Of a stretch of 64,000 nt of DNA, positions 9-49,592 are shown piece by piece (position 1 is the first letter of the stretch; the number at the start of each line of letters is the position of its first letter). A program made the position numbers and the translations under genes. Where the stretch lies: assembly GCA_043751595.1 (NCBI GenBank), contig JAYUZR010000035.1, positions 2,534 to 66,533 on the forward strand, written 5' to 3'. The notes beneath the pieces are model-generated. The model was not told where the DNA came from. It made no database searches and saw nothing but the letters and a program-made list of their open reading frames with translations. The stretch comes from Candidatus Berkelbacteria bacterium. GTDB lineage: Bacteria; Patescibacteriota; UBA1384; CAILIB01.

Positions 9-662
9 GTGCGGGTGGTAAGTACCGATAGATCTCGTGCCCTCTTCACCCAGACCATCGATAGCCCAACAGGCACTCGCCTGCGCCCTGGCCAAAAAGC
101 ACTCGAGTTCTACACTTCCTTCTCCAATCCAAAAAGCCCTATGTATTCCTGGAATACCAGTATGCCAAGTACCCTGGATGCCTTTGGGCAAGGTAGGGTA
201 GCCATGGTGATTGCCTTCACTGATTTTGGCAAACAACTAAAAGCTAAGTACCCCAAGTTCCAGTACGAGGTAACCAGCGTTCCCCAAATCTCTACCACCC
301 AAGACCAGGTTAACCTTATTAGATTCAACCTAGAGTCGGTTACTCAAGTTGCCGAAAGCAGCAATGCTGCCTTTGCCTTCCTTGGCACCTACGCCAGCGA
401 AAAAAACAGCAAAACTCTTTCTAAAGAAGCTAAGCTTACCAGTCCGTATCTTAAGTCGCTCCAGGCAACTTCCAGTAGTAGCGACTACCTTACTAAACAG
501 GTACTAAGCGGCAAGGCGGTCTTCAAAAAGAGTCATGCCGATTTTGATAAAGCCTTCGAAGAAATGATTTCTGACGTTGTTCAGAACGGACTACCTACCG
601 ATATTACCCTTGATACTGGAGCCGAGAAGGTCAATCAACTTCTTGCCCCGCAAGATGAATAA
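9..662 (+). CDS. C-terminal fragment of an extracellular solute-binding protein (ABC-transporter SBP family 1-like); 5' end outside the window
   Basis: The ORF is open to the window start. The C-terminal stretch FEEMISDVVQNG...VNQLLAP resembles the end of sugar-type SBPs. No ATPase or permease partner is visible. Confidence 0.3.
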   Translation: MRVVSTDRSRALFTQTIDSPTGTRLRPGQKALEFYTSFSNPKSPMYSWNTSMPSTLDAFGQGRVAMVIAFTDFGKQLKAKYPKFQYEVTSVPQISTTQDQVNLIRFNLESVTQVAESSNAAFAFLGTYASEKNSKTLSKEAKLTSPYLKSLQATSSSSDYLTKQVLSGKAVFKKSHADFDKAFEEMISDVVQNGLPTDITLDTGAEKVNQLLAPQDE

Positions 663-1020
663 AGTATTCTGGATTAGTATTGGATGGCTTCTCAGTTTTG
701 CTCCTATTCAGCGGGCCCTTGCCACTAGTTACACCATCCCGGGCAATGTACCCTCTGGTGCAATCGATACCAGGACAGCAGCAGCCGGTGCGCAGACGCT
801 AGTCCAGAGAATCATCGATACGATGACATTCTTTGTCTTCCCCATCGCTTTTATCGGCATTGTGTATATTGGCTACAATCTTATTATGGGGCCAAATAAC
901 CCCGATACTTGGGCAAAATCGAAGAAGCAAATCGGGTACATGGTAATTGGTATCACCCTCATCACCCTTGCCTCAACACTCGTGTATGCCTTCCGTAGTG
1001 TAATTTTTGGAGCTCTTTAA
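655..1020 (+). CDS. T4SS pilin-like small membrane protein (VirB2/TrbC-like), paralog 1
   Basis: Signal or TM segment, then a second TM after a motif (GPNNPDTWAKSKKQIGYMVIGITLI) related to the SGGxPxKxKxARQGIINxVIG core of paralogs 3-8. It is first of four tandem genes. The internal ATG at 655 was chosen over the 577 ORF start, which overlaps the upstream gene. Confidence 0.45.
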   Translation: MNKVFWISIGWLLSFAPIQRALATSYTIPGNVPSGAIDTRTAAAGAQTLVQRIIDTMTFFVFPIAFIGIVYIGYNLIMGPNNPDTWAKSKKQIGYMVIGITLITLASTLVYAFRSVIFGAL

Positions 1021-1581
1021 ATGAACCAGACATTCTCTCGTCTCCTAGTACTAAGTATCGCCCTGGGTGGCTTACTTATGAGTAGCCCAGCATTAGCTGC
1101 ATCAATTCCCAATCCTTGCGCAGCAGTTATTGCTAAGCCAGGCTCCACGCTAAAAACAAGCGCCCTCCCCCTGCTGCCTAAGGAATTATTTACTCCTAAT
1201 ATCATTCCTTCGCCCGCGCCAACACCTGCCCCAGGCGCACCTCCCGCCGCAGTAACGCCAGCCCCCAAGGTTACGCCCCAGTGCAACCCAACCTACTGGA
1301 CTCGCCAGGTCTACAACGTAATTGCCCTTCGTATCCTCAACCTCCTCAACTGGACCGCTGGCAGCCTAGCCGTGGTCATTACGGTATACGCTGGAACCCT
1401 CTACGTAATGGGATTCATGAACGAAGCTAACGTAAAGAAGGCAAAAAGCCTCCTTATTACCGCCTATACCGGCCTTGCCATCGTCTTTCTCTCCCGCGCT
1501 ATCCTGTATGGTACCGTTGCCGTTATTACCGGCGACGATGTTAACCCGACAAGTCCATACAACGTGGATCTAACCCTATGA
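1021..1581 (+). CDS. T4SS pilin-like protein, paralog 2 (signal peptide, Pro/Ala-rich linker, two C-terminal TM helices)
   Basis: Signal peptide LLMSSPALAAS, PAPTPAPGAPP linker, then two hydrophobic helices flanking NEANVKKAKSLLITAYTGL. It sits in tandem with the clearer paralogs and its TGA stop overlaps the next ATG (ATGA). Confidence 0.4.
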   Translation: MNQTFSRLLVLSIALGGLLMSSPALAASIPNPCAAVIAKPGSTLKTSALPLLPKELFTPNIIPSPAPTPAPGAPPAAVTPAPKVTPQCNPTYWTRQVYNVIALRILNLLNWTAGSLAVVITVYAGTLYVMGFMNEANVKKAKSLLITAYTGLAIVFLSRAILYGTVAVITGDDVNPTSPYNVDLTL

Positions 1582-1964
1582 TCGCTTCAATCGTCCTACA
1601 TCTCTTAGGGGTATCCCCCGCTTATGCGGCAGGCGTTATTACTAGTCCGAACGATCCCAACCGAGTAGTTGGCCAGTATAAATACTTTACCGATAAAACT
1701 ACCCCACAGGGGATCGATACCGTTATTGATGGTATCTACGGCAACGCCCTCACTATCGTTTTCCTATTTCTAGGAGTCGCCGCCATCGCCTATCTTATTT
1801 GGGCCGGTATCCGTTACGCCTCTAGCGGAGGCAACCCTGAAGCCGCTAAGCAAGCCCGCCAAAAGATTATCAATGTATTCCTCGGGCTCGTAGTTCTCTT
1901 TGGTGTATATACGATCCTTGCGGCAATTATCTCCCTTGGTGGATGGGTAGGAAGGTTCGTCTAG
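1578..1964 (+). CDS. T4SS pilin-like protein (VirB2/TrbC-type), paralog 3
   Basis: Signal peptide ending AYAAG. Core motif IAYLIWAGIRYASSGGNPEAAKQARQKIINVFLGLVVLF with two TM helices, the family hallmark shared by six paralogs in this window. Confidence 0.55.
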   Translation: MIASIVLHLLGVSPAYAAGVITSPNDPNRVVGQYKYFTDKTTPQGIDTVIDGIYGNALTIVFLFLGVAAIAYLIWAGIRYASSGGNPEAAKQARQKIINVFLGLVVLFGVYTILAAIISLGGWVGRFV

Positions 1965-2034
1965 CTCAACAATAGTTTGACAACACCACCGTCCCTTCTT
2001 TAGAATTAATATAACCTTATTTCTAAAGGAGGAT

Positions 2035-2430
2035 ATGTCAATTAACTTCCGTTCTGCTTACGCACGTCTTGGCGCTGTCGCCGTTGGTGCTAGCCTAGCT
2101 ACTCTTCCAATGGCTGCTCACGCTGCTGTTGGTGCGCTCACCCCTGCTGGTGGCGATATCAATACATCAAGCACCCTAGATGAGCAGATCAGCTCCATCT
2201 CTGGTAGCGTTATTGATACCGTTCTTCTTATCGCTGGCGTCCTAGCTGTTATCTACCTGCTTTACTCTGGTATTCAGTACATCACTTCAGCTGGTAACCC
2301 AGAAAAAGCTAAGGGCGCTCGTCAGGGTATCATCAACGCCGTTATCGGTATCGTTGTTATCATTGCTGCGTTCTTCATCGTTCGTCTTGCAGTTGGTAGC
2401 GGTAACCAAATCAACAGCCTTAACAACTAG
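2035..2430 (+). CDS. T4SS pilin-like protein (VirB2/TrbC-type), paralog 4
   Basis: RBS AAAGGAGG 6 nt upstream of the ATG. Signal peptide ...AAHAAVG. Core YLLYSGIQYITSAGNPEKAKGARQGIINAVIGIVVII. Followed by a terminator. Confidence 0.55.
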   Translation: MSINFRSAYARLGAVAVGASLATLPMAAHAAVGALTPAGGDINTSSTLDEQISSISGSVIDTVLLIAGVLAVIYLLYSGIQYITSAGNPEKAKGARQGIINAVIGIVVIIAAFFIVRLAVGSGNQINSLNN

Positions 2431-2452
2431 TCCCCTAGTTCTAAGCCTGCAA

Positions 2453-2480
2453 AGACCCGGCCTTGGCCGGGTCTTTTTTA
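2453..2480. terminator. Rho-independent terminator, usable in both directions
   Basis: GACCCGGCC-ttgg-CCGGGTC hairpin followed by TTTTTT on the plus strand. It ends the pilin cluster and, on the minus strand, the FtsB-like gene. Confidence 0.6.
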
Positions 2481-2504
2481 ATTAGCGATCTTTCTTTAAT
2501 TTTT

Positions 2505-2568
2505 AGTGATTATTTCTTCCGCGTATCCGAGGCGTACGCCGAGGGCTTAGCGGGAGAAATAAATCACT
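2505..2568. repeat. 64-nt structured element R1 (conserved loop, covarying stems); paired with the copy at 3839..3902
   Basis: Sequence: GTGATTA-tttcttccgc-GTATCCGaGGCGTacGCcGAGGgCTTAG-cgggagaaa-TAaATCAC. The outer stem and 27-nt loop match R2, while the 11-12 bp middle stem has a completely different but still complementary sequence. It lies between the stop of the minus-strand gene 2564..2989 and its terminator. Confidence 0.5.
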
Positions 2569-2989
2569 TACCTTGGATATATCTCCACCACTGCTCCCAG
2601 TTAGGCAGGTTGCGCCTTGGATCGCGGGCAGCCTGAGCGGCAGCTAGCGCCTGGTGGGCCGCCTGCTGCTTGCCTACGCTTGATTCTGGCAGTGCATAGA
2701 CCTTCTCTTCTGGCCGATGTAGTAACGCCACCCTCCGTAACTCCTTTTCTTTAAAGGAGTCGCTTTGGTAATACACCAGCAATGCCTTTAGGCGGTCGCG
2801 CTCACTCTCTAGGTTGGTGAGCTTAGTTTCCAAATCAGTAATCTGCTGCCTGCTGGCTACCGCCGATTTAAGTGAATTCGTGGTAACCACACCTAAATAG
2901 CACACGGCAGCAATCAGCCAGAGGGCCGTGGTTGAACGCTGTGTCCAGCGAAGAATACGTTGCAGAAGAATACGCAAGAGATGCACCAA
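2564..2989 (-). CDS. FtsB/DivIC-like septum formation initiator (single TM plus coiled coil)
   Basis: N-terminal TM (ALWLIAAVCYLGVVTT), then a heptad coiled coil QITDLETKLTNLESERDRLKALL. Size and layout are typical of FtsB/DivIC. Confidence 0.4.
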   Translation of the reverse strand: MVHLLRILLQRILRWTQRSTTALWLIAAVCYLGVVTTNSLKSAVASRQQITDLETKLTNLESERDRLKALLVYYQSDSFKEKELRRVALLHRPEEKVYALPESSVGKQQAAHQALAAAQAARDPRRNLPNWEQWWRYIQGK

Positions 2990-3004
2990 CCAAGTATAGC
3001 AAAC

Positions 3005-3532
3005 TTACTTACTACCAAATAATTGAACAGTAATAAGAGTACGCTCCCCCGATGCATCTACAGACCACACACAAGCGTATCCGACTTCTTTATATTTAGG
3101 AGAAAGAATATTGGCACGGTGACCAGGACTCTTCATCCAACCAGTGGTGATGCCTTCAGGAGTTTTGAATCCCTTAGCCAGGTTCTCCCCTGCGCTACGG
3201 TATGAATACCCTGCCTCCTCAATAAATGACCAAGGAGTCTTACCATCTAGAGGACGAAAGTGCGCCCAATAACCACGAGTAATCATATCGTGCGCCTTAG
3301 CCTGAGCGGCCTGATTTAGTTGCTCATTAATAACAAGCTCAGGAAGGCCGGTCGCTACGCGCTGTGCGTTGGTAAGGATGAGAAGCTCGGCTGGAGAATA
3401 CGCAATTTGCTCAGCAGAAAGCTCGGTTGCTGAAACGCCATTTGCAGCCAAAGCAGTATCGGCCCCAAGCGGAAGAATGGCGCGAATTACTACTACGAGG
3501 ATAAAAAGGCTTTTTGCCCAAAAAGTATTCAT
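3005..3532 (-). CDS. Secreted CAP/SCP/PR-1 domain protein (YkwD-like)
   Basis: Signal peptide, then the CAP motifs GENLA, GWMKSPGHRANIL and YKEVGYAC. Confidence 0.7.
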   Translation of the reverse strand: MNTFWAKSLFILVVVIRAILPLGADTALAANGVSATELSAEQIAYSPAELLILTNAQRVATGLPELVINEQLNQAAQAKAHDMITRGYWAHFRPLDGKTPWSFIEEAGYSYRSAGENLAKGFKTPEGITTGWMKSPGHRANILSPKYKEVGYACVWSVDASGERTLITVQLFGSK

Positions 3533-3798
3533 TTGTGTTGTTTTTGTTTCTCTTTTTGAGATGCACTAAGTATACGACAGAACAGCAGTAATTTCAATCA
3601 GTATTGAAGTCTTTAAGATTACGGACACGTCAGTTTTACGCTCCAGCGATTACTATACGATAGTGTATTACCTTTCCCGTATCAGCTGTTCGGTTTGTTT
3701 TACCACTACTTTTCCACAGGTGGATAACCTCTCAATAAGTGGGCGGTCAGCCCCGGTGGGGCCAGTGACCACATAGCCCTCTCGTAACTTGAGACACT

Positions 3799-3830
3799 AA
3801 AAAAAGCCCCTCCTTTCGGAAGGGCTTTTG
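3799..3830 (-). terminator. Rho-independent terminator of pyk
   Basis: On the minus strand the hairpin AGCCCTTCC-gaaa-GGAGGGGCT is followed by TTTTTTT. Confidence 0.6.
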
Positions 3831-3838
3831 CCTCTGTC

Positions 3839-3902
3839 GGTGATTATTGTACTGGCGTATCCGGAGCGTCAGCGACGGTCTTAGCCAGTACAATAGATCA
3901 CC
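3839..3902. repeat. 64-nt structured element R2 (second copy of the R1 family)
   Basis: Sequence: GTGATTA-ttgtactggc-GTATCCGgaGCGTcaGCgacGGtCTTAG-ccagtacaa-TAgATCAC. A perfect 11-bp middle stem (ATTGTACTGGC/GCCAGTACAAT). Same placement as R1: 4 nt after the pyk stop and before the pyk terminator. Confidence 0.5.
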
Positions 3903-3905
3903 CTC

Positions 3906-4955
3906 TTAGAAGTAGTTCGGGCGGTGATACATAGCTTCTTCAGCGCGCTTAACAATCTTTACCATGGTGGCCAGAGAGTTAATTGGGTCAATACCAGCAG
4001 CTGTTTCTTCGGAAAGCATCACTGCATCGCTACCAGCAAATACTGCGTTCGCCACATCTGAAACTTCAGCGCGGGTTGGGCGAGTATTTTTGGTGATAGA
4101 AAGCATCATCTGAGTAGCGGTGATGACTGCCTTCTTAGACCAGCGGCATCGCTCGGTAATCTCGCGCTGCAGTACTGGAATATCTTCCATAGGCATCTCG
4201 ATACCAAGATCGCCACGGGCAATCATCACGATATCGGAACCATCGATAATCTCCTGAAGGTTAGCAATCGCGCGGCGACGCTCTACCTTAGAAATAAGCT
4301 TAATATCGCGACTGCCGATCATGGCACGTACTTCATCAAGCTCTTTTCGACTATCAACAAAGGAAAGTGCAATCGCATCTACTCCTGGGGCCGTATTAAG
4401 CAAGAAATCAAGATCACGATAATCTTTTTCGGTTAGCGCAGGAGAGCTCAGGTTGGTATCGGGAACATTAATACTCTTGCGTGACATCAAGATACCACCA
4501 GAGGTGATTCGAACAGCGATACGGTGACCCTTCACCCAACTAACAATGCCCTCAATGGCACCATCCATGAAGGTAATATATTCCCCTGCTTTTACATCAT
4601 TATGCAACGTGGAGTCGTTGATCAAAATCTCATCGGAAGATTCTGGCTCACCAACGTTCATGTAGAACGTATATTCCTTATCGGTATCAAGAGGAATGCC
4701 GGCATCTGGCAAAATACCAACGCGGATATTTGGACCCTGAAGATCGGCCTGCATCTTGGTTTCAGCACCATGCTTAGTCTTAATCTCTTGCAGCATGTTG
4801 TAACGAGCGGTGTACTCATCGTACTGGCAGTGCGCAAAGTTATTGCGCAGCATATCGGAGCCGTTGAGAATCAGTCCTTCGATAATTTCGGGACTAGCAC
4901 TAGCAGGACCCACCGTAGTAACAAACTTAGTCCAGGTGCCTGAAAATTGGTTCAT
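3906..4955 (-). CDS. pyk: Pyruvate kinase (short form without the C-terminal regulatory domain)
   Basis: Motifs MIARGDLGIE, TATQMMLS, TRAEVSDVANAV and GSDAVMLSEETA. The start was taken at MNQFSGTWTKF rather than the longer ORF. About 350 aa, so it lacks the allosteric C-terminal domain. Confidence 0.85.
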   Translation of the reverse strand: MNQFSGTWTKFVTTVGPASASPEIIEGLILNGSDMLRNNFAHCQYDEYTARYNMLQEIKTKHGAETKMQADLQGPNIRVGILPDAGIPLDTDKEYTFYMNVGEPESSDEILINDSTLHNDVKAGEYITFMDGAIEGIVSWVKGHRIAVRITSGGILMSRKSINVPDTNLSSPALTEKDYRDLDFLLNTAPGVDAIALSFVDSRKELDEVRAMIGSRDIKLISKVERRRAIANLQEIIDGSDIVMIARGDLGIEMPMEDIPVLQREITERCRWSKKAVITATQMMLSITKNTRPTRAEVSDVANAVFAGSDAVMLSEETAAGIDPINSLATMVKIVKRAEEAMYHRPNYF

Positions 4956-5066
4956 GAATTGTTCTTTTCTTAAGAAATAAAGTCGACTGAACAAGCAGGT
5001 GCTAGTCAGCCGAGAACGGGTCGTACTATACTCTATTTACAGACCTTACGTAAACCTATCATTTTA

Positions 5067-5444
5067 ATGGTCCAACTCTTACTCGCCAAGCTGATTGGCC
5101 TACAAACTGCGTACGCCATCGTATCAGACCAAGCGATCAAACCAGCATCTTCCAGTGTCGGAACTGGGGGCCTTTTTGATCTAGGTAGCGATGCTACTGC
5201 CACGGTAAACAGTCTTACCTCCAGCGCCGTGGATACTATCGGCCTAGTGGCAGGTGCTTTAGCTATTATCTACATCCTTTGGTACGGCATTCAGTATATC
5301 CTCTCTGGCGGTGTACCCGATAAAACTAAGGTTGCACGGCAAGGAATCATCAACGGCGTTATCGGTATTGTTATCATTACAGCAGCCTATGCCGTAATCC
5401 GTTTCGCTGTTGCCATCGGAAATAAGGCTGCATCCGTTATCTAA
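5067..5444 (+). CDS. T4SS pilin-like protein (VirB2/TrbC-type), paralog 5
   Basis: Signal peptide ...LQTAYAIVS. Core IIYILWYGIQYILSGGVPDKTKVARQGIINGVIGIVIITAAYAVIRFAV. Confidence 0.55.
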   Translation: MVQLLLAKLIGLQTAYAIVSDQAIKPASSSVGTGGLFDLGSDATATVNSLTSSAVDTIGLVAGALAIIYILWYGIQYILSGGVPDKTKVARQGIINGVIGIVIITAAYAVIRFAVAIGNKAASVI

Positions 5445-5449
5445 CCATC

Positions 5450-5884
5450 ATGCTCGCTGCACTCCTTCCCCTTTACGCAACACTCCAGACGGCCATTATC
5501 GAGCATGCCTACGCTACTGACGGCATCATTCCCACTCCGGCTAATCAGAAGCTTAACACTTCAACTGTTGTAACCAGTAGTGGAAGTGCTTCCGACCAGG
5601 TAAACCAACTACTCTTTACCGGAAATGGCGGTACTCCCGGTATCGTTGGACAGGCCCTCACTATCGGCACCGCTGTCGCCGGCGGCATTGCTGTACTCTA
5701 CGTAATCTGGGCCGGTGTCCAGTACATTATGGCCGGTGGAAGCCCCGATAAAACCAAGGCAGCCCGAGCAAGAATCGTTGGTGCCGTTGTTGGTATTGTG
5801 CTCATTATGGCCACCTATGCCATTATCCGCTTCGCCATTGCTGCTGGTCGCCTAGTAGATACCGCCAGTACAAAGGCAAACTAA
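5450..5884 (+). CDS. T4SS pilin-like protein (VirB2/TrbC-type), paralog 6
   Basis: Signal peptide ...AYATDG. Core VLYVIWAGVQYIMAGGSPDKTKAARARIVGAVVGIVLIMATYAIIRFAI. Tandem with paralogs 5 and 7. Confidence 0.55.
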   Translation: MLAALLPLYATLQTAIIEHAYATDGIIPTPANQKLNTSTVVTSSGSASDQVNQLLFTGNGGTPGIVGQALTIGTAVAGGIAVLYVIWAGVQYIMAGGSPDKTKAARARIVGAVVGIVLIMATYAIIRFAIAAGRLVDTASTKAN

Positions 5885-5899
5885 TAACCCAGGACCGCC

Positions 5900-6646
5900 G
5901 TGATCACGGTTAATCAAGTACCAGCGGGCACCTTTAACCTGGTAGACAGACTCAATGCCGCTGGGTCAAATATTGATATCATTCTGTACGCTGTCTTAGG
6001 TGGCGTAGCAGTTATCTTTGTTACCCTCGCAGGAGTTCGCTACATTACCTCAGGTGGAAGTGCCGATAAAGCAAAAGTTGCCCGGCAAGGAATTATTAAT
6101 GCCGTGATCGGTGTCGTGATTGGCATGTCTGCCTTTGCCATTATTCGACTTGCTCGCCTCTCCACCACTGTTGGAGCAGACGTTGCCACTGGTAAGTTTG
6201 TGGTTACCACCCCTGCCCCCAAGCCCACTAAAGCGCCAAGCGGATCGAACCCCCGTTCAGACGCTACGCCAAGTTATTCTGGTGTTGGAACCTACTACCA
6301 AGAGGCTCAACGAGTACTCGCGCTATACTCCCTAGTACCTGCCTATACCGACAGCGCCGGCAAGCATCCGGCTAAGATGTGCTACCTAGGAGACCCAACC
6401 CGCTGCTTAGCAGCAAACGCAGATGATGCCGGAGTAACCAATGGCGCAGCCTTTAACGACCTTGACGAGTGTATCCACTTTGCGGAAACAAGGAATGATA
6501 TCTACTCCTGCGTTGATACCGCCGCTAACGGAGGAAATACTAACCACGAAGAATGGATCTGCCGAGCATGGGAAGTCGACGCCTTTAATCATTTTCTCGC
6601 GACTAACGGTGACATGGATTACCCCGCCTGCCCCTTCAAGGATTAA
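5900..6646 (+). CDS. T4SS pilin-like protein, paralog 7, with a 120-aa cysteine-rich C-terminal extension
   Basis: Pilin core VRYITSGGSADKAKVARQGIINAVIGVVIGMSAFAIIRLAR, then a Pro/Thr linker and a domain with six Cys (CYLGDPTRC...ECIHF...SCVDT...ICRAW...ACPF). Confidence 0.5.
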   Translation: MITVNQVPAGTFNLVDRLNAAGSNIDIILYAVLGGVAVIFVTLAGVRYITSGGSADKAKVARQGIINAVIGVVIGMSAFAIIRLARLSTTVGADVATGKFVVTTPAPKPTKAPSGSNPRSDATPSYSGVGTYYQEAQRVLALYSLVPAYTDSAGKHPAKMCYLGDPTRCLAANADDAGVTNGAAFNDLDECIHFAETRNDIYSCVDTAANGGNTNHEEWICRAWEVDAFNHFLATNGDMDYPACPFKD

Positions 6647-8029: not shown

Positions 8030-8786
8030 GCTACCCCCCCTTACTATTGTCCACCTCTACCCGGAGCTTATGAACACCTATGGGGACACTGGGAATATTG
8101 CCGCGCTCGAACGGTACGCCAAGCTAGCAGGTAGCGACGTAACGGTTATCGGGTATGCACCTGGTGATGCTGTCCCGAGCTCTGGGGATATCTACTTCTT
8201 TGGTGGTGGGCAAGATGCTGCACAGGGCGTGGTAGGCTCAGACCTTGAGCGCTTACAACCGGTAGTTGATCGCATTCGAGAGAAGCAAATCCCCCTACTA
8301 GCCATCTGCGGAGGCTACCAGCTGCTTGGATCTGCCTACCTCCCATTTGATGCCGATCCGATTAAAGGCCTTTCCCTGTTCCCGGTAACTACTCGTGCGT
8401 CAAACGATAGGATGATCGGAAACTGCATTCTTACCGCTAATCCGGCCCTAGCATTAGAAGATCCATCGACCATCGTTGGCTTCGAGAACCACAGCGGAAA
8501 GACCGAGTACATCGACCATCGTATAAATCCATTAGGCACCGTGGTGGTGGGTAGCGGCAATAACGGTGCGGACAAGACCGAGGGGTGTGTAGTAGACAAC
8601 GCCATTGGCTGCTACTTACATGGGCCCCTCCTCCCTAAAAACCCCCATATTACAAAATGGCTCCTTGGGCACTGGCTTAGGCAGGCAGGAGAAGATGCTA
8701 CATTGTTAAATACCGTAAACAATAGTATTGCCCTAGAGGCCCACCGCTACATTGTAGAGCGGTATGCTCCAACGCTTGCGGCTTGA
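8022..8786 (+). CDS. gatD: Lipid II isoglutamine synthase glutaminase subunit GatD (CobB/CobQ-like GATase)
   Basis: LYPELMNTYGDTGN, ICGGYQLLG, TIVGFENHSGKT, GNNGADKTEG and YLHGPLLPKN align with S. aureus GatD as recalled. Confidence 0.8.
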   Translation: MHKLPPLTIVHLYPELMNTYGDTGNIAALERYAKLAGSDVTVIGYAPGDAVPSSGDIYFFGGGQDAAQGVVGSDLERLQPVVDRIREKQIPLLAICGGYQLLGSAYLPFDADPIKGLSLFPVTTRASNDRMIGNCILTANPALALEDPSTIVGFENHSGKTEYIDHRINPLGTVVVGSGNNGADKTEGCVVDNAIGCYLHGPLLPKNPHITKWLLGHWLRQAGEDATLLNTVNNSIALEAHRYIVERYAPTLAA

Positions 8787-9262
8787 TCGGCAAGCATATA
8801 ACCTCCCCTAGGCTGTTCACTAAGAAGCATTACCGCCTCGTCGATAAATTGGCCGAGGCCCTGACCTTGCTCTCTAACCATTACCGCCGGCGATAGGACG
8901 TTACTTTCGTGTAGTGCCTCCACTGCCGCGCCCGAAGCAAAGAGAGCAATCCCCGCCTGATGAAAGGACCAGATTAGACTACGTGCTCTTGCGCTTTGTT
9001 TAATAGCATCAACTCCCATTTTCCCATCTGGGACAACGAGTGCATCGAAATCGGTAACGGTGATGGAATCGATCGGTAGATCGATAAGGACATCTCTCCC
9101 CCTGGCTGCGCCATCGGTAGTTTCAACCGTTAAGTACTGATGAGGACTGGTTGTATATGTCATGGCGCCTTCGCATTCAAATTGAGTACTAAGTGACTCA
9201 AGCTCAGGCTGGTTAGTGCCATCAGCCACTAAAATGAGCAGTTTCTTTCCGAGTAGTTTCAT
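8747..9262 (-). CDS. DJ-1/PfpI family protein (class I GATase-like fold, Cys-to-Ser at the nucleophile elbow)
   Basis: LLILVADGTNQPE...DFDALVVPDG...IALFASGAAVEAL fits the DJ-1/PfpI pattern but has Ser where the catalytic Cys normally sits. Start taken at MKLLGKK. Confidence 0.45.
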   Translation of the reverse strand: MKLLGKKLLILVADGTNQPELESLSTQFECEGAMTYTTSPHQYLTVETTDGAARGRDVLIDLPIDSITVTDFDALVVPDGKMGVDAIKQSARARSLIWSFHQAGIALFASGAAVEALHESNVLSPAVMVREQGQGLGQFIDEAVMLLSEQPRGGYMLADQAASVGAYRSTM

Positions 9263-9740
9263 TGGGTTCTTTCTTAGTGAGATGATAAACGAATAGCCCG
9301 AGAGTAAGGGTTGAGGTGGTTGCAAAAACAAGGAAGCCAATCCGTGATTGTTGGATATACGCCCCCGCCCCTACCCCCGGGATACAAACCACAACTTTTC
9401 CTAGTACCGCGCCGGGTGTAAGAATCCAGGGATCGCCATTGGGATTGTGATCGCCTTTACTTACGATGGCCTGCGCTGGAAATACTCCGGAGATTGCCGA
9501 TATACGGTGAGTTACTATCTGGCGCTGAGGAGTAGGTGCAATAAAGGTGATAACATCACCCACCTTAAGCTGGCTCTGAATTACTGCTTGCCTTGCTAAA
9601 ACCAGTGAAGTAACGGGACACCTTGGTGCCATACTATTACTAACGAGAGCATACGTTCTGAAGCCAGCCACCCTTAATAAGGTGCCGAGAAAAAGAAACA
9701 CCATAAAGACAGCCCCGACGAAAAGATTGCGGCGAAACAT
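9222..9740 (-). CDS. sipW: SipW-type (S26B, ER/archaeal-type) signal peptidase I
   Basis: N-terminal TM, then the catalytic box LVSNSMAP (compare SGSMEP). Lies directly downstream of a TasA-like gene. Confidence 0.55.
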   Translation of the reverse strand: MFRRNLFVGAVFMVFLFLGTLLRVAGFRTYALVSNSMAPRCPVTSLVLARQAVIQSQLKVGDVITFIAPTPQRQIVTHRISAISGVFPAQAIVSKGDHNPNGDPWILTPGAVLGKVVVCIPGVGAGAYIQQSRIGFLVFATTSTLTLGLFVYHLTKKEPNETTRKETAHFSG

Positions 9741-17414: not shown

Positions 17415-17815
17415 CTTCTAGCTACATCCTCGACACAAGCGCCTATTCTGCCTTCTTTAAGGGTGATCGACGCCTGCGTCCGTGGTTTACACACACCCAT
17501 AAGATCTTCCTACCCTTAGTGGTTATCGGAGAATTGCGTGCAGGCTTTGCAAATGGGAATAGGACTAGCGAGAATGAAACTCTTTTGGGCAGGTTTTTAG
17601 ACACCGCCAATGTAGACACCCTCCCACTTAGTCTTTCCACAACCAAGTTCTTCGCCGATACCTTTTTACAAGTAAAAAAGTCTGGGAAAGCATTAGGTAC
17701 AAATGACCTTTGGATTGCGGCTCTCGCCAAGGAACATAGCCTGCCGATTCTTACGCTTGATGCTGATTTTCAAAGAATTAAAGGGGTAGAATTACTCGCT
17801 ATCCCCCAAACGTAA
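17405..17815 (+). CDS. vapC: PIN-domain toxin VapC
   Basis: YILDTSAY near the N-terminus, an acidic TLDADF, and NDLWIAALA, the PIN catalytic residues. Confidence 0.6.
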   Translation: MELASSYILDTSAYSAFFKGDRRLRPWFTHTHKIFLPLVVIGELRAGFANGNRTSENETLLGRFLDTANVDTLPLSLSTTKFFADTFLQVKKSGKALGTNDLWIAALAKEHSLPILTLDADFQRIKGVELLAIPQT

Positions 17816-19496
17816 ACGCATTCAAGCTAACACCAGCTGACACCTCTAACGTAAGCTCATAATTCTGGGTAAACGAAGGCTGGGCCACTAATCGATAGAG
17901 GCGAGATTCGTTAAAAGTAACCATCCCATCTTTCACATCACTCCCTGCCTTATCAGCCGGAATTGGCTTTCCATCCAGCAATACCCGCACGGCAACCGGA
18001 GAAGAGGCAGCGCCAACCACATACGCCTCTTTGGAAGAAATCCTGAACCTAAGCTTACTATTGGTTACAGAGGCAATCTTCTCACTATCTACCTTCCAAG
18101 TGCCTTCAAGTGCCCACTGATCTGGGTAGAGTTTATCCGGAAAAGCAAAGGTATTTTCATCCTTAGCTCCCAGTGGTGGAGTTCCAGCAAAGTCGCTGGC
18201 GCGCTTTAAGCCCAAATACGTTTCGGGAGTCTGGTTAGCGCTAATGGGCGTGGTAGCATCTTCCTCAACCGTAGTATCAGAAAGGGTAGCACCAGCTTCC
18301 ACCAACAATCCGCGAATGGCCTGCTCACTTTCCTTGTATTCACCCTCTCCATAGTGCACACGGCGGATCATACCTTTAGCATCAATAAGATATCCTGCTG
18401 GCCAGTACTGATTCTTAAACGCACTCCAGGTTGCAAAGTCATTATCAAGCGCAACAGGGTAGGTAATCCCCTGGTCTTTTACCCCCTTCTCTACGTTGGC
18501 CGCCACCTTCTCAAGGGCAAACTCTGGTGCGTGCACACCAATAATAACCAAGCCTTTATCTGAGTATGCTTTATATAATCCCTCTAGATGTGGATTGTTT
18601 CGGATGCAGTTAATGCAGGTGTAGGTCCAGAAATCGACAAGCACTACCTTACCGCGTAACTCTTGTAGGGTAAGGGGCTTACTATTAATCCAGTTGGTAA
18701 GACCAATAAGCTCGGGAGCCGCCTGCGGAGTAATGTTATACACCTTTCCCTTAGCAATAGGGGGCTGAGTACTGGGAATAAGCTTGGCCGAAAGAGCATC
18801 AAAATTGAAAGGGGTATGGACCGAAACCCAGGTCTGCACCTTTTTATCGTAGCCAGTCACAATAAGAAGTCCGACAATAATAAAGATAACGGCCAAGGTG
18901 CGCTGGAACCAACCACCTGGGTTAGCCGCAAACTTTAACCTGGAAATTAAGGCCCGACCATAGTGACTAATGAGCAGCAAGATGCTGCTCAAGCCAATAA
19001 TATAGGCCGCCATATAGGCCAGCGCCTCGCCAAAACTTACCGGAAGTACGGTTGCCAGGATATAGACATAGAGCGGGCTGCAGCTAGAAAAAACTGGACC
19101 CAGTGCCGCACCCATAATAATGGGACCAAGAAGCGATTGCTTACTATCAGCTCCCTTGTTAAGCGCCTCCTGAGCCTTAGTTTCAATCCCTAATCGGTAC
19201 ATTAAGGTGCTGTAAGCAAGGGGGAAGAAGGTAACAATACCCAGGGCGATGATCAGACCACCAGAAATACTAGTTAACACAACCGGTGGAACCGCAATAA
19301 ATAAGGTAGTTGCCTTAAGTAAAAGGGTGAATAAAGCGAGAGAAACAGCCAGCGAAGCAATGATCACCAACGGTCGTCGCTTATCACTGGCAGAACCCGT
19401 CACCGATCCCCCAATAATTACCGGGAGTAGGGGAAGGACACAGGGAGCAAGTACGGTGAGGATACCGGCCAAGAATGAACCTAAAAGAAGTAGCAT
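17799..19496 (-). CDS. DipZ-like thiol:disulfide interchange protein (CcdA/DsbD membrane domain, TlpA-like thioredoxin, C-terminal beta domain)
   Basis: N-terminal CcdA motif LAPCVLPLLP with multiple TM helices. Redoxin domain VLVDFWTYTCINCIRNNPHL (CxxC). A 150-aa C-terminal domain. The architecture resembles mycobacterial DipZ. Confidence 0.65.
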   Translation of the reverse strand: MLLLLGSFLAGILTVLAPCVLPLLPVIIGGSVTGSASDKRRPLVIIASLAVSLALFTLLLKATTLFIAVPPVVLTSISGGLIIALGIVTFFPLAYSTLMYRLGIETKAQEALNKGADSKQSLLGPIIMGAALGPVFSSCSPLYVYILATVLPVSFGEALAYMAAYIIGLSSILLLISHYGRALISRLKFAANPGGWFQRTLAVIFIIVGLLIVTGYDKKVQTWVSVHTPFNFDALSAKLIPSTQPPIAKGKVYNITPQAAPELIGLTNWINSKPLTLQELRGKVVLVDFWTYTCINCIRNNPHLEGLYKAYSDKGLVIIGVHAPEFALEKVAANVEKGVKDQGITYPVALDNDFATWSAFKNQYWPAGYLIDAKGMIRRVHYGEGEYKESEQAIRGLLVEAGATLSDTTVEEDATTPISANQTPETYLGLKRASDFAGTPPLGAKDENTFAFPDKLYPDQWALEGTWKVDSEKIASVTNSKLRFRISSKEAYVVGAASSPVAVRVLLDGKPIPADKAGSDVKDGMVTFNESRLYRLVAQPSFTQNYELTLEVSAGVSLNAFTFGG

Positions 19497-34945: not shown

Positions 34946-35020
34946 GCGGGTATCGTATAATGGTCATTATGCCACCTTGCCAAGGTGGAGAAACGGGTTC
35001 GATTCCCGTTACCCGCTCCA
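34946..35020 (+). tRNA. tRNA-Gly (GCC), CCA encoded
   Basis: GCGGGTA...anticodon loop TTGCCAA...TTCGATT...TACCCGC-T-CCA. Confidence 0.85.
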
Positions 35021-35042
35021 TTTGTTTTTAAGCCGGCTACCC

Positions 35043-35117
<75 letters not shown>

Positions 35118-35131
35118 CCTAGTACACTTTT

Positions 35132-35353
35132 ATGCTTCCACTCCAAATCGTACACGCCATTATTGCCCTTCTCCTTGCTGGTAGTATTTTGCTGCAGCAG
35201 CGCTCAAGTGGTCTTGGTGATGCCTTCGGAGGAGACACATCTGTGTATACCAGCCGCCGCGGAGCAGAGCGCATTCTGTTCTATCTTACCATTGTGTTTG
35301 GGGTTTCATTCGTTCTCCTTTCACTTCTCCAATTGTTCCTTGCCAAGCGCTAG
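35132..35353 (+). CDS. secG: Preprotein translocase subunit SecG
   Basis: Two TM helices with LLQQRSSGLGDAFGG in between. Embedded in the tRNA cluster and followed by tRNA-Leu, like E. coli secG-leuU. Confidence 0.8.
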   Translation: MLPLQIVHAIIALLLAGSILLQQRSSGLGDAFGGDTSVYTSRRGAERILFYLTIVFGVSFVLLSLLQLFLAKR

Positions 35354-35359
35354 ATTCAC

Positions 35360-35445
35360 GCCGGGATGGTGAAATGGTAGACACGCTAGATTCAGGTTCT
35401 AGTGATCGCAAGATCGTGGAGGTTCGAGTCCTCTTCCCGGCACCA
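35360..35445 (+). tRNA. tRNA-Leu (CAG), class II, CCA encoded
   Basis: GCCGGGA...anticodon loop TTCAGGT, long variable arm GATCGcaaGATCG, TCCCGGC-A-CCA. Confidence 0.85.
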
Positions 35446-35446
35446 T

Positions 35447-35524
35447 TTTCTTTGCGGAGAAAGCAGTCGAAAAGGAAACAACATTCCTTAAGCAACTTTG
35501 TTGCTGCTCCAATGCTTTCTCCGC
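35447..35524 (+). repeat. Long imperfect inverted repeat in the tRNA-Leu/tRNA-Phe spacer (TTCTTTGCGGAGAAAGCA ... TGCTTTCTCCGCAAAGAA) with an internal GCAAC-tttg-TTGC hairpin
   Basis: About 18-bp arms separated by 41 nt, read directly from the sequence. A candidate processing structure or small RNA. Confidence 0.3.
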
Positions 35525-35556
35525 AAAGAAAATAGGCTAAATGCAAGGAAAACAAG

Positions 35557-35630
35557 CCGGGGTAGCTCAGTGGTAGAGCAGGGGCCTGAAGAGCCTCGTG
35601 TCGACAGTTCGATTCTGTCCCTCGGCACCA
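35557..35630 (+). tRNA. tRNA-Phe (GAA), CCA encoded
   Basis: GCCGGGGTAGCTCAGTGGTAGAGC...anticodon loop CTGAAGA...CCTCGGC-A-CCA. Confidence 0.85.
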
Positions 35631-35686
35631 TTTTCTTCTGGGAAAAGTTTTGGTATAGTCCGAGCCAGATTCGTTAAGAATCGTTC

Positions 35687-35762
35687 GGGCTCTTAGCTCA
35701 GTTGGTAGAGCGCTTCGTTTACACCGAAGATGTCAGAGGTTCGAGTCCTCTAGGGCCCACCA
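35687..35762 (+). tRNA. tRNA-Val (TAC), CCA encoded
   Basis: GGGCTCTTAGCTCAGTTGGTAGAGC...anticodon loop TTTACAC...AGGGCCC-A-CCA. Confidence 0.85.
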
Positions 35763-44734: not shown

Positions 44735-44811
44735 TGGTCGGCTTGATGGGACTTGAACCCATGACCGGCGCCTTATAAGAGCGCTGCTCTAACCAGCTGA
44801 GCTACAAGCCG
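44735..44811 (-). tRNA. tRNA-Ile with a UAU (TAT) anticodon, CCA encoded
   Basis: Reverse complement is CGGCTTG-TA-GCTC-AGCTGGTTA-GAGC-A-GCGCT-CTTATAA-GGCGC-CGGTC-ATGGG-TTCAAGT-CCCAT-CAAGCCG-A-CCA. U33 and A37 flank the TAT anticodon. Confidence 0.75.
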
Positions 44812-48481: not shown

Positions 48482-49435
48482 ATGCAGCTTCCATTACGCC
48501 TGCTCACCCCTGGTGAGCAGGTTGTGTTAATTTCCCACATCAACCCCGATGGCGACGCAGTAGGTTCTTTGCTCGCCCTTGCTTTGGTCCTTAAAAACCT
48601 AGGGTGGAAGGAAGTTATCCCGGTACTGAGTGATGGCGTGCCAAGTAGCTTTAACTACCTCCCGCTTAGTAAGGCGGTTATCCGAGAAGTCCCGCTCCAC
48701 GCTGATTACTGCATACTTCTTGATGCCAACGAAACAAGTCGATCTGGCCAGCATGATGCTCTGCAGCAGTACCTGGCTACCGACCGTCTTATCGTGATTG
48801 ATCATCACCCGCCTACGCAGCTTATCAATCGAGCAGTTGATCACCTTCACCAGGTAGATATTTCCTCAACCTGCGAAATACTGTACACCGCCTTTCGCGC
48901 ATCTAAGATTAAGATTACTGCAGAGATTGCCACCTGCCTCCTCACTGGCATCTTTACTGATACTGGTGGATACCATCACAGCAACACTCGCAATGAGACC
49001 CTTGAAGCCTGTGGCTTTTTGATGCGCTGTGGGGGGCGACTTGATCAAGTAGTAAGTAACTTAGTACAAGGTAAAACCTTAAGTAGTTTACGCCTCCTCG
49101 GGATTGCCCTTGAGCGAGTCACTATTACCTCCAAGGGGCGCTGTGCAGTAACCGCGCTTACTCAAGCAGACATCGAGGGTACCCAGGCTACAGCTGCTGA
49201 TATTAGCGGTATCGTGGGCCATCTCGCCATGCTGCCAGGGGTTAAGTGCGCACTCCTCATTAGTGAGTTTACACCGGGGATTGTACGCGGCTCCCTACGT
49301 ACCACAGAAGGCTCTACAGCCGACGTTGAGCGTCTAGCTAAGTTACTAGGAGGTGGAGGCCATAAGAAGGCGGCTGGATTCTCTGTGTATGGCCATATTG
49401 AAGTAAGGGGGCAAACCTGGAAGGTGGTTGCCTAA
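48482..49435 (+). CDS. DHH/DHHA1 phosphoesterase (second NrnA-like paralog)
   Basis: ISHINPDGDAVGS, VIDHHPPTQ and GGGGHKKAAGF. Confidence 0.6.
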   Translation: MQLPLRLLTPGEQVVLISHINPDGDAVGSLLALALVLKNLGWKEVIPVLSDGVPSSFNYLPLSKAVIREVPLHADYCILLDANETSRSGQHDALQQYLATDRLIVIDHHPPTQLINRAVDHLHQVDISSTCEILYTAFRASKIKITAEIATCLLTGIFTDTGGYHHSNTRNETLEACGFLMRCGGRLDQVVSNLVQGKTLSSLRLLGIALERVTITSKGRCAVTALTQADIEGTQATAADISGIVGHLAMLPGVKCALLISEFTPGIVRGSLRTTEGSTADVERLAKLLGGGGHKKAAGFSVYGHIEVRGQTWKVVA

Positions 49436-49478
49436 CCTAAGGCAAATCGCTAGTATTCCAGTCGGTATCGGTTTATGT

Positions 49479-49564: not shown

Positions 49565-49592
49565 GCCAAGTCCTTTGGGACTTGGCTTTTTT
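49565..49592 (+). terminator. Rho-independent terminator after tRNA-Leu
   Basis: GCCAAGTCC-tttg-GGACTTGGC followed by TTTTTT. Confidence 0.65.

What the first reader, a model, noticed from the sequence alone, without database searches (positions are those of the whole stretch)
655..6646. Eight paralogous VirB2/TrbC-like pilin genes in three loci, seven of them away from the T4SS operon
Four tandem genes (655..2430), three tandem genes (5067..6646) and one inside the T4SS operon (54662..54964) encode proteins of 100-250 aa. All have a signal peptide and two TM helices around a conserved Y(I/L)xSGGxP(D/E)KxKxARQGIINxVIGIVxI core. Flanking segments are divergent (N-terminal variable regions, a Pro-rich linker in paralog 2). 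This many pilin paralogs, mostly unlinked from the secretion ATPase and sitting among housekeeping genes (pyk, murT-gatD), is unusual. It may reflect a repertoire of major and minor pilins, or antigenic or host-range variation, for a surface filament.
Basis: partly seen in the sequence, partly recalled or inferred. Interest (0 to 1): 0.6.

Follow-up and report, generated by a model that had tools for sequence, protein, structure and literature searches.

The report
Patescibacterial VirB2-type pilin gene arrays
The eight small membrane-protein genes are real type IV secretion (VirB2-like) pilin genes, but such pilin arrays are already a published hallmark of the ultrasmall Patescibacteria; what this analysis adds is that the four-gene array is an ancient, fixed operon led by a sugar-binding-protein-like lipoprotein gene.

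Summary
All eight genes exist at the stated coordinates. Seven pass Pfam's curated cut-off for PF18895 (T4SS_pilin). The eighth (1021..1581) falls below it but is a positional orthologue of PF18895 proteins in other genomes. A VirB3/TrsD/VirB4 operon lies in the same window. The VirB2-like reading is therefore supported.

The claim of unusualness is not supported. Arrays of 2-11 divergent VirB2-like genes in Patescibacteria are published (McLean 2020; Wang 2023, where they are essential; Quinonero-Coronel 2025, 441 arrays).

Corrections: genes 7 and 8 lack a signal-like leader. The quoted core motif holds only for genes 3-7.

What the analysis adds:
- The four genes at 655..2430 are four old, positionally orthologous types. 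In 33 of 36 cases the best cross-genome match sits at the same array position.
- Position 4 is the most conserved. It has its own promoter-like site, an AGGAGG ribosome-binding site and a terminator, so it is the likely major subunit.
- Genes 5-7 are extra copies of the position-4 type.
- A MalE-family lipoprotein gene directly precedes the array. Searching from that gene, 40 of 41 metagenome loci showed pilin ORFs immediately downstream. I found no report of this.

Verdict: a new member of a known kind, of moderate interest.

The parts
9..662 (+). 3' part of a MalE-family SBP_bac_1-like lipoprotein gene (470 aa in full; it starts upstream of the window). It is the first gene of the pilin operon, and its stop overlaps the start of pilin P1 by 8 nt.
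   Evidence: Pfam SBP_bac_1. Lipobox LLATGC in the full protein. The profile matches solved sugar-binding SBPs at E 3e-20. The gene lies upstream of pilin arrays in 12 other genomes and in 40 of 41 metagenome loci.
655..1020 (+). Pilin P1 (121 aa): signal-like leader plus a two-helix hairpin. Divergent 'position-1' type.
   Evidence: PF04956 at 33.6 bits and PF18895 at 27.1 bits, both above cut-off. The best cross-genome matches are all P1 genes.
1021..1581 (+). Pilin P2 (186 aa): signal peptide, Pro-rich ectodomain and a C-terminal pilin hairpin. 'Position-2, long' type.
   Evidence: PF18895 reaches only 19.1 bits, below the 26.6 cut-off. Core identity to P2 orthologues is 56-59%. Of the six orthologues, 3 pass PF18895. 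The second ORF is the long one in 26 of 31 arrays.
1578..1964 (+). Pilin P3 (128 aa); its start overlaps the P2 stop by 4 nt.
   Evidence: PF18895 at 35.7 bits. The best cross-genome hit is L004_P3.
1977..2006 (+). Promoter-like site TTGACA-18-TAGAAT (11 of 12 matches) in the 70-nt gap before P4.
   Evidence: A TTGACA-like box and an AGGAGG occupy the equivalent P3-P4 gap in 7 of 10 genomes. The total count of promoter-like sites in the region is not above shuffles.
2035..2430 (+). Pilin P4 (131 aa): the candidate major subunit. It has the only AGGAGG ribosome-binding site among the eight genes.
   Evidence: PF18895 at 47.1 bits. NF045849 at 40.8 bits against a cut-off of 40. It is the most conserved type, with core identity 0.54 overall and 0.65 among close genomes. 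AF2 model: helix 48-84, loop, helix 89-130, with pLDDT above 90 in the hairpin. SD site.
2451..2476 (+). Terminator-like hairpin (11 pairs followed by a T-run) directly after P4.
   Evidence: Similar hairpins follow P4 orthologues.
5067..5444 (+). Pilin 5 (125 aa), a P4-type extra copy.
   Evidence: PF18895 at 36.2 bits. Core identity to P4 is 59%.
5450..5884 (+). Pilin 6 (144 aa), P4-type.
   Evidence: PF18895 at 31.2 bits. Core identity to genes 4, 5 and 7 is 42-50%.
5900..6646 (+). Pilin 7 (248 aa): no leader, a P4-type hairpin, a Pro-rich linker and a Cys-rich C-terminal domain predicted to face outward.
   Evidence: PF18895 at 33.5 bits. No N-terminal hydrophobic segment. The C-terminal domain has one relative among 1.84 billion representative proteins, and that relative has the same architecture.
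49665..50102 (+). PrgI/VirB3-like protein, the first gene of the T4SS operon. It lies just after tRNA-Leu at 49479..49564.
   Evidence: PF12666 E 3.4e-5, 24.7 bits against a cut-off of 27. tRNA.
50099..50887 (+). TrsD-like protein, resembling the VirB4 N-terminal domain.
   Evidence: Weak TraC_F_IV hit. Homologues sit next to VirB4 in L012, L014, L015 and L017. TrsD is described in PMC12102498.
50894..52693 (+). VirB4-type ATPase (599 aa).
   Evidence: P-loop_TraG 2.2e-28, AAA_10 and CagE_TrbE_VirB hits. Identity to VirB4 in related loci is 50-54%.
52713..54662 (+). 649-aa protein with a C39-like peptidase domain, a candidate cell-wall hydrolase (VirB1 role).
   Evidence: Peptidase_C39_2 at 29.3 bits. 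By analogy with the essential peptidase and lysozyme genes downstream of virB4 in Southlakia.
54662..54964 (+). Pilin 8 (100 aa): leaderless, divergent, and inside the T4SS operon.
   Evidence: PF18895 at 31.2 bits. NF045849 at 29.2 bits and a weak pLS20_p028 hit.
54967..56304 (+). 445-aa protein with weak PEGA/beta-propeller-like hits; role unknown.
56255..57355 (+). NlpC/P60 cell-wall peptidase.
   Evidence: PF00877 at 28.1 bits.
57333..64000 (+). Open frame of more than 2,200 codons that runs off the window end. It has a signal-like N-terminus and no Pfam match. It is the last visible gene of the T4SS operon.

Best explanation
The eight genes encode VirB2/TrbC-superfamily pilins (Pfam PF18895) of the monoderm-type type IV secretion system that Patescibacteria carry. 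They fall into three functional groups.

(a) A conserved operon at 9..2430: a MalE-family lipoprotein gene followed by P1, P2, P3 and P4. The four pilin genes are anciently diverged, positionally orthologous types. P1-P3 are translationally coupled, apparently low-expression minor subunits. P2 carries a variable ectodomain ahead of the hairpin. P4 is the conserved major subunit and has its own promoter-like site, a strong ribosome-binding site and a terminator.

(b) Three extra P4-type copies at 5067..6646. The last one displays an orphan Cys-rich C-terminal domain.

(c) A divergent, leaderless copy inside the VirB3-TrsD-VirB4 operon.

Inferred mechanism:
- Each protein inserts into the membrane as a hairpin, with the K/R-rich loop in the cytoplasm and both ends outside.
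- The leader is cleaved from six of the eight.
- The VirB4 machine extracts the hairpins from the membrane and polymerises them into a wall-crossing tube or pilus that contacts the host bacterium.
- Minor subunits and fused domains provide initiation, tip or adhesion functions.

Shown here: family membership, architecture, positional orthology, operon structure, SBP linkage and co-occurrence with VirB4. Inferred: polymerisation, dependence on VirB4, and the major/minor roles.
For: Family: PF18895 passes the curated cut-off for 7 of 8 genes. PF04956 TrbC passes for P1. NF045849 'pilin-like conjugal transfer protein' passes for P4. All 58 database homologues of P4 carry PF18895, and several are named pilin or VirB2.

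Architecture: every gene has two hydrophobic helices around a short K/R-rich loop. The AF2 hairpin model has pLDDT 92-96.

Machine: PrgI/VirB3, TrsD, VirB4 and two wall hydrolases are in the window. In L012, L014, L015 and L017 pilin arrays lie 5-7 kb from VirB4.

Orthology: the best cross-genome match is at the same array position in 33 of 36 cases. Permutation of position labels gives a mean of 8.9 and a maximum of 22 in 2000 trials. P4 core identity is 0.54, against 0.28 between positions within a genome.

Expression signals: P1-P3 abut or overlap and mostly lack a ribosome-binding site. P4 follows a 70-131 nt gap with a TTGACA-like box and AGGAGG in 7 of 10 genomes, and a hairpin terminator comes after it.

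Literature: the pilin array is essential for epibiotic growth of Southlakia epibionticum (PMC10633639). 441 arrays of 2-11 genes are reported (PMC12102498). VirB2-like PrgF is essential in a Gram-positive T4SS (bioRxiv 10.64898/2025.12.18.695078).
Against: - No filament has been seen for this organism, and no experiment ties these genes to VirB4.
- Seven of the eight genes lie about 48 kb from the ATPase.
- No VirB6-like platform protein was recognised in the window.
- A sequence profile found no solved pilin.
- The overall number of promoter-like sites in the region is no higher than in shuffles, so the P4 promoter rests on its quality and its conservation across genomes.
- The positional analysis uses a 66-column core and loci that were themselves found with a P4-type pattern.
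Confidence: 0.6

Rival explanations
1. The paralogs are an interchangeable repertoire for antigenic or host-range variation. Different copies would be swapped or expressed alternately to change the filament surface, as proposed for the VirB2 paralogs of Bartonella and Anaplasma and suggested for Patescibacteria in PMC12102498.
For: The N-terminal regions, predicted to be exposed, are highly variable, and within-array identity is about 25%. The P4 type is amplified to four copies here and to as many as five or six terminal copies in other arrays. Gene 7 and its counterpart in MAG ELA587 carry unrelated C-terminal display domains.
Against: P1, P2 and P3 are conserved as distinct types across distant genomes: 33 of 36 best cross-genome matches are at the same position. 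Variation by recent duplication would not give that pattern. The paralogs share no DNA repeat longer than 28 nt that could support cassette recombination. P1-P3 are translationally coupled, so they are co-expressed rather than alternatives.
Confidence: 0.15
2. They are VirB2 homologues that never form a long pilus. Instead they build only a short membrane- and wall-embedded channel or stalk within the T4SS, as long assumed for monoderm systems.
For: The closest curated models outside Pfam come from monoderm conjugation systems: a Mycoplasma ICE pilin-like protein and pLS20 p028. The T4SS here is of the monoderm type, with PrgI, TrsD and wall hydrolases.
Against: Nothing in the sequence separates a short conduit from a long pilus. 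Variable N-terminal ectodomains of up to about 800 aa on P2 orthologues, and C-terminal display domains, suit an exposed structure better. Recent work argues that Gram-positive VirB2-like proteins also form pili.
Confidence: 0.2
3. The SBP-led operon works independently of the T4SS. The sugar-binding lipoprotein and the small two-helix proteins would form a membrane complex for carbohydrate capture, uptake or adhesion.
For: Linkage to the SBP-like gene is near-obligate, at 40 of 41 loci, while linkage to VirB4 is not. The SBP profile matches sugar-binding proteins.
Against: No ABC permease or ATPase gene is adjacent in any locus inspected. The small proteins match pilin models, not transporter families. 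A paralog sits inside the VirB4 operon. In Saccharibacteria the arrays sit beside VirB4 without the SBP.
Confidence: 0.08
4. They are Sec-exported effector or toxin subunits released through the T4SS, like the pertussis toxin subunits.
For: Signal-like leaders on six of the eight genes. The array is in a genome with a T4SS that lacks an obvious relaxase or coupling protein in the window.
Against: Each protein is dominated by two transmembrane helices and matches pilin HMMs. No toxin or enzyme domain was found.
Confidence: 0.02

Closest known systems
VirB2-like pilin arrays of Patescibacteria (Pfam PF18895): SEML1_0014-0019 of Southlakia epibionticum ML1, the 'secreted protein array' of Nanosynbacter lyticus TM7x, and the 441 arrays catalogued by Quinonero-Coronel et al. 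2025
   Same: Same Pfam family. Tandem arrays of divergent copies at about 25% identity. Patescibacterial genome with a monoderm-type VirB4/PrgI/TrsD system. No relaxase or coupling protein seen nearby.
   Different: Here the arrays lie about 48 kb from virB4, and the main array is led by an SBP-like lipoprotein gene. In Southlakia and TM7x the arrays sit beside the T4SS genes with no such gene. Positional orthology, the long second gene and the separate expression signals of P4 are not described in the papers read.
Conjugative pilins of diderm T4SSs: VirB2 (Ti plasmid), TrbC (RP4), TraA (F)
   Same: A leader followed by two hydrophobic helices joined by a short basic loop. P1 passes the PF04956 TrbC/VirB2 cut-off. 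VirB4 co-occurs.
   Different: Eight copies instead of one. There is no outer membrane, and no VirB5, VirB7, VirB9 or VirB10. Some copies carry large N- or C-terminal extra domains. Similarity to solved pilins could not be shown by fold or profile search.
VirB2-like proteins of monoderm conjugation systems: PrgF of pCF10, the Mbov_0395/MMCAP2_0565 family of Mycoplasma ICEs, and pLS20 p028
   Same: P4 reaches the curated cut-off of NF045849 (40.8 against 40), and gene 8 scores 29.2. Same monoderm T4SS class. Small two-helix proteins with a charged loop.
   Different: Those systems are conjugative, with a relaxase and coupling protein, and usually have one functional copy near virB6. Here there are many copies in a chromosomal, apparently non-conjugative system.
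VirB2 paralog families of Bartonella and Anaplasma
   Same: Multiple divergent VirB2 genes in a host-dependent bacterium (cited in PMC12102498).
   Different: Those are read as variation repertoires. Here three of the four array positions are stable orthologous types across genomes.
Major/minor pilin operons of type IV pili and type II secretion pseudopili
   Same: The logic is similar: one abundant, conserved subunit with its own expression signals, plus a co-transcribed set of divergent low-abundance subunits, one of which carries a large extra domain.
   Different: The protein fold and machinery are unrelated. The resemblance is functional analogy only and was not tested here.

Membership tests
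PF18895 T4SS_pilin (VirB2/TrbC superfamily) | Match to the family HMM at or above the curated score | tested here: met
   Seven of eight genes score 27.1-47.1 bits against a cut-off of 26.6. Gene 2 scores 19.1. P1 also passes PF04956 at 33.6 against 27.9. P2 orthologues: 3 of 6 pass.
PF18895 T4SS_pilin (VirB2/TrbC superfamily) | Two hydrophobic helices joined by a short charged loop | tested here: met
   Hydropathy scan of all eight genes. Loop consensus GGxPDKxKxARQ. AF2 hairpin for P4 with pLDDT 92-96.
PF18895 T4SS_pilin (VirB2/TrbC superfamily) | N-terminal leader removed by signal peptidase | tested here: inconclusive
   Six genes have a signal-like hydrophobic N-terminus ending in AxA-type motifs. 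Genes 7 and 8 have none. Cleavage itself cannot be tested here. An S26 peptidase gene lies at 9222..9740.
PF18895 T4SS_pilin (VirB2/TrbC superfamily) | Co-occurrence with a VirB4 ATPase and other T4SS parts | tested here: met
   VirB4, a TrsD-like protein, two wall hydrolases and a PrgI/VirB3-like protein (24.7 bits, below the cut-off of 27) are in the window. Arrays lie near VirB4 in four related loci. VirB6 was not identified.
PF18895 T4SS_pilin (VirB2/TrbC superfamily) | Fold resembles solved conjugative pilins | tested here: inconclusive
PF18895 T4SS_pilin (VirB2/TrbC superfamily) | Polymerises into an extracellular filament in a VirB4-dependent way | not testable with these tools
   Needs imaging, biochemistry or genetics.
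Patescibacterial VirB2 arrays (Quinonero-Coronel et al. 2025) | Two to eleven pilin genes in tandem or separated by one gene, about 25% mutual identity, in a genome with a Patescibacteria-type VirB4 | tested here: met
   Arrays of 4 and 3 genes plus a single gene. Mean column identity is 25%. VirB4 with TrsD and PrgI. Definition.
Variation repertoire (Bartonella/Anaplasma VirB2 paralogs; pilE/pilS-type cassettes) | Copies more alike within a genome than between genomes, or sharing recombination-competent DNA repeats | tested here: not met
   Same-position cross-genome matches in 33 of 36 cases. The longest shared DNA repeat is 28 nt at 68-79% identity. The P4-type copies (genes 4-7) are the only partial exception.
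ABC importer substrate-binding protein (for the upstream gene 9..662) | SBP fold or sequence family | tested here: met
   SBP_bac_1. The profile hits sugar-binding SBPs at E 3e-20, some of them over the full length.
ABC importer substrate-binding protein (for the upstream gene 9..662) | Encoded with cognate permease and ATPase genes | tested here: not met
   The neighbours are an NTP-transferase gene upstream and pilins downstream in L018-L021. No permease or ATPase gene is present.
Holins / bacteriocin immunity proteins | Match to such families, or a phage or bacteriocin context | tested here: not met
   No such Pfam, NCBIfam or PHROG hit. The context is chromosomal housekeeping genes.

The most novel reading that the evidence does not exclude
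The MalE-family lipoprotein and the four positionally fixed pilins form one machine: a VirB2-type filament with dedicated minor subunits and a carbohydrate-binding partner. That partner would either recognise host cell-wall glycans (acting as adhesin or tip) or receive host-derived sugars. This would be a pilus organisation, and a use of a solute-binding protein, not described for any type IV secretion system.
Probability: 0.2. Interest if true: 0.7.

Novelty: new member of a known kind. Interest (0 to 1): 0.4.

Why it matters
Patescibacteria make up a large share of bacterial diversity and live attached to other bacteria. In the one genetically tractable species, their T4SS and its pilin array are essential, yet what the system builds and moves is unknown. 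This window adds no new kind of element.

The comparative results do sharpen the open question. The array is a fixed set of four different subunit types rather than a pool of variants. One type looks like the major subunit. A sugar-binding-protein-like lipoprotein is almost always encoded first in the operon. Together these give concrete, testable candidates for the filament subunit, the accessory subunits and a possible host-recognition component.

Tried and rejected
- A genome-collection scan with the eight-sequence alignment failed because no stretch was conserved enough. A three-sequence P4-type alignment worked, but it biases the loci towards P4-type genes.
- No locus in the species-representative genome set is the window's own organism; the best match is 50% identical. 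The exact proteins occur only in unnamed NCBI/ENA/Logan metagenome contigs, so the class within Patescibacteria was not determined.
- The C-terminal domain of gene 7 has no Pfam family. Apart from the window's own protein, it has one true relative among 1.84 billion representative proteins.
A homologue search with its C-terminal fragment returned only four fragments.
- I checked whether the T2SSE/PilB-type ATPase gene next to the array in L019-L021 pointed to a type IV pilus link. It does not hold here, because no such gene lies in the window.
- Holin, immunity-protein and toxin-subunit readings were rejected for lack of any supporting family hit.

Full report
OBSERVATION

The window (64 kb, 49% G+C) carries eight + strand ORFs at the stated coordinates:

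| Gene | Coordinates | Length |
|---|---|---|
| P1 | 655..1020 | 121 aa |
| P2 | 1021..1581 | 186 aa |
| P3 | 1578..1964 | 128 aa |
| P4 | 2035..2430 | 131 aa |
| gene 5 | 5067..5444 | 125 aa |
| gene 6 | 5450..5884 | 144 aa |
| gene 7 | 5900..6646 | 248 aa |
| gene 8 | 54662..54964 | 100 aa |

Gene calls on the public metagenome contig that holds the same DNA agree for the first four. An HMM built from the eight finds no ninth copy in a six-frame scan; the next hit has E=0.59.

Pfam places PF18895 (T4SS_pilin) at or near the top for all eight. Seven are above the curated cut-off. P2 scores 19.1 bits against 26.6. P1 also passes PF04956 TrbC/VirB2.

Each protein has two hydrophobic helices around a short basic loop. 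Six have a signal-like leader. Genes 7 and 8 do not, and their reading frames leave no room for one.

P1, P2 and gene 8 share only 14-30% core identity with the rest.

A DivIC-like gene, a CAP-domain secreted-protein gene and a DJ-1/S26 pair are also nearby.

THE SECRETION SYSTEM

A T4SS operon starts just after tRNA-Leu (49479..49564) and runs as follows:
- a PrgI/VirB3-like gene
- a TrsD-like gene
- VirB4
- a 649-aa gene with a C39-like peptidase domain
- gene 8
- a gene with weak PEGA/propeller-like hits
- an NlpC/P60 peptidase gene
- an open frame of more than 2,200 codons that leaves the window and has no Pfam match

The rest of the window is housekeeping: recA, ftsK, a clpB-like gene, pnp, ychF and a DsbD-thioredoxin fusion.

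WHAT IS ALREADY KNOWN

The phenomenon is published.
- McLean et al. 2020 (PMC7427843) described arrays of 4-6 small signal-peptide proteins next to T4SS genes across Saccharibacteria and other CPR.
- Wang et al. 2023 (PMC10633639) annotated six PF18895 pilins (SEML1_0014-0019) beside the Southlakia T4SS. Transposon sequencing showed them essential, while a lone seventh pilin was dispensable.
- Quinonero-Coronel et al. 2025 (PMC12102498) found VirB2-like genes in 1,948 VirB4-containing assemblies, near virB4 in only 1,135 of them. They reported 441 arrays of 2-11 genes with about 25% mutual identity and suggested host-range versatility.
- A 2025 review calls these systems unique among monoderms for their potential to make conjugative pili.
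- A December 2025 preprint shows that VirB2-like PrgF is essential in a Gram-positive T4SS and that such proteins are widespread.

The family assignment is therefore right. 'Unusual' holds only against classical T4SSs, not against this phylum.

WHAT THE COMPARISON ADDS

1. Conserved synteny. A genome scan with a P4-type pattern gave 17 loci. Pilin-HMM scans of these showed a recurring four-gene pattern of short, long, short, short. In nine of the loci, tblastn found a homologue of window 9..662 directly upstream of the array. MAG ELA587 is syntenic with window 1..10 kb throughout.

2. Positional orthology. On a 66-column core, the best cross-genome match of a gene at array position i is another position-i gene in 33 of 36 cases. 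Shuffling the position labels gives a mean of 8.9 and a maximum of 22 in 2000 trials. Same-position identity is 0.29-0.33 for P1-P3 and 0.54 for P4, against 0.28 between positions within a genome. The four genes are old, distinct types.

3. Amplification of the P4 type. Genes 5, 6 and 7 share 42-59% core identity with P4 and each other. A P4-like gene at the equivalent second site also exists in ELA587, L004 and L005.

4. Expression signals.
   - P1-P3 abut or overlap each other and the upstream gene, and mostly lack a Shine-Dalgarno site.
   - P4 follows a 70-nt gap holding TTGACA-18-TAGAAT and AGGAGG, and a strong hairpin terminator follows it.
   - The same gap, box and AGGAGG recur in 7 of 10 genomes.
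   - This is what a major subunit next to co-transcribed minor subunits would look like.

5. Extra domains.
   - Position-2 proteins carry the hairpin at the C-terminus after an ectodomain of very variable length. The whole protein is 186 aa here and up to about 800 aa elsewhere. The second ORF is the long one in 26 of 31 arrays.
   - Gene 7 adds a Pro-rich linker and a Cys-rich C-terminal domain. That domain has one true relative among 1.84 billion representative proteins, with the same architecture.
   - The ELA587 counterpart instead carries CarboxypepD_reg-like beta-sandwich domains.

6. The upstream gene.
   - It encodes a 470-aa lipoprotein with lipobox LLATGC.
   - It belongs to the MalE/sugar-binding SBP family, with E 3e-20 to solved structures.
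   - No permease or ATPase gene is nearby.
   - I searched metagenomes from this gene alone and obtained 64 loci. Of the 41 with at least 900 nt downstream, 40 have pilin ORFs immediately downstream on the same strand, typically 3-7 of them. Only four pilin hits lie anywhere else in those loci.
   - I found no mention of this linkage in the papers read or in full-text searches.

7. No substrate for recombination. The paralogs share no DNA repeat longer than 28 nt.

MECHANISM

Best-supported reading: these are VirB2-type subunits of a T4SS-built tube or pilus. P4 is the major subunit, P1-P3 are accessory subunits, and the fused domains and the SBP-like lipoprotein are candidates for contact with the host.

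The basic loop and acidic, K/R-poor termini fit the VirB2 topology, with the loop in the cytoplasm and both ends outside. This step rests on established knowledge of VirB2/TraA, not on a test made here.

Polymerisation, dependence on VirB4 and the subunit roles are inferences. Fold and profile searches against solved structures could not add support, because a helical hairpin matches thousands of unrelated proteins.

RIVALS

- A variation repertoire is disfavoured for P1-P3 but remains possible for the P4-type copies.
- A short wall-embedded conduit rather than a long pilus cannot be excluded.
- A T4SS-independent, SBP-centred complex is unlikely, given the pilin-family matches and the paralog inside the VirB4 operon.
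- Toxin-subunit and holin readings have no support.

VERDICT

The feature is a new member of a known, published kind. The positional orthology, the major/minor signature and the near-obligate SBP-like leader gene are, as far as I could find, undescribed refinements. They raise the interest to moderate.

Noticed in passing
window 9..662 (the gene starts upstream of the window; full length in L018:216..1628): A MalE-family SBP-like lipoprotein gene is translationally coupled to the first pilin gene. Homologues of it are followed by pilin arrays in 40 of 41 metagenome loci, with no ABC permease or ATPase gene nearby.
   Followed up: yes
window 57333..64000 (+), runs off the window end: An open frame of more than 2,200 codons with a signal-like N-terminus and Ala/Ser/Pro-rich stretches closes the visible T4SS operon. 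It has no Pfam match. It could be a giant surface protein or an extended VirB6-like protein.
   Followed up: partly
window 5900..6646 (gene 7, residues about 95-248); P0062: A leaderless pilin carries a Pro-rich linker and a Cys-rich C-terminal domain that is nearly an orphan, with one relative at 40% identity. A DsbD-thioredoxin fusion gene at 17799..19496 (-) could supply extracytoplasmic disulfide chemistry.
   Followed up: partly
L002:9911..11377 (MAG ELA587, between pyk and murT): The single pilin at the site equivalent to genes 5-7 is 489 aa long. It has CarboxypepD_reg/PEGA-like beta-sandwich domains after the hairpin, so different display domains are fused to pilins at the same locus in related genomes.
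   Followed up: partly
L019, L020, L021 (about 8-10 kb around the arrays): In three other genomes the SBP-pilin operon is followed by a convergent T2SSE/MshEN (PilB-type) ATPase gene. It lies 6-8 kb from yidC, rnpA, rpmH and, in L020, dnaA, that is, near the replication origin. The window itself has no such ATPase gene.
   Followed up: partly
window 9222..9740 (-) and 8747..9340 (-): An S26 signal peptidase gene and a DJ-1/PfpI gene sit just beyond the second pilin site. The same pair lies next to the second-site pilin in L002, L004 and L005. The peptidase is a candidate leader peptidase for the pilins.
   Followed up: no
window 49428..50102 and tRNA-Leu 49479..49564: The mechanical ORF of 224 aa overlaps a tRNA-Leu gene. 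The PrgI-like gene more likely starts near 49665, so the T4SS operon begins directly after the tRNA.
   Followed up: partly
window 3906..4994 (-): The pyruvate kinase gene encodes only about 350-360 aa and matches only the barrel domain of Pfam PK. The usual C-terminal domain seems to be missing.
   Followed up: no
window 34946..35762 and 44735..44811: A cluster of five tRNA genes (Gly, Cys, Leu, Phe, Val) lies within about 800 nt. Separately, there is a tRNA predicted with anticodon TAT (Ile).
   Followed up: no
window 3005..3532 (-) and 2564..2989 (-): A secreted CAP-domain protein gene and a DivIC-like gene lie between the two pilin arrays. Both are conserved at that place in L002, L004 and L005.
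   Followed up: no
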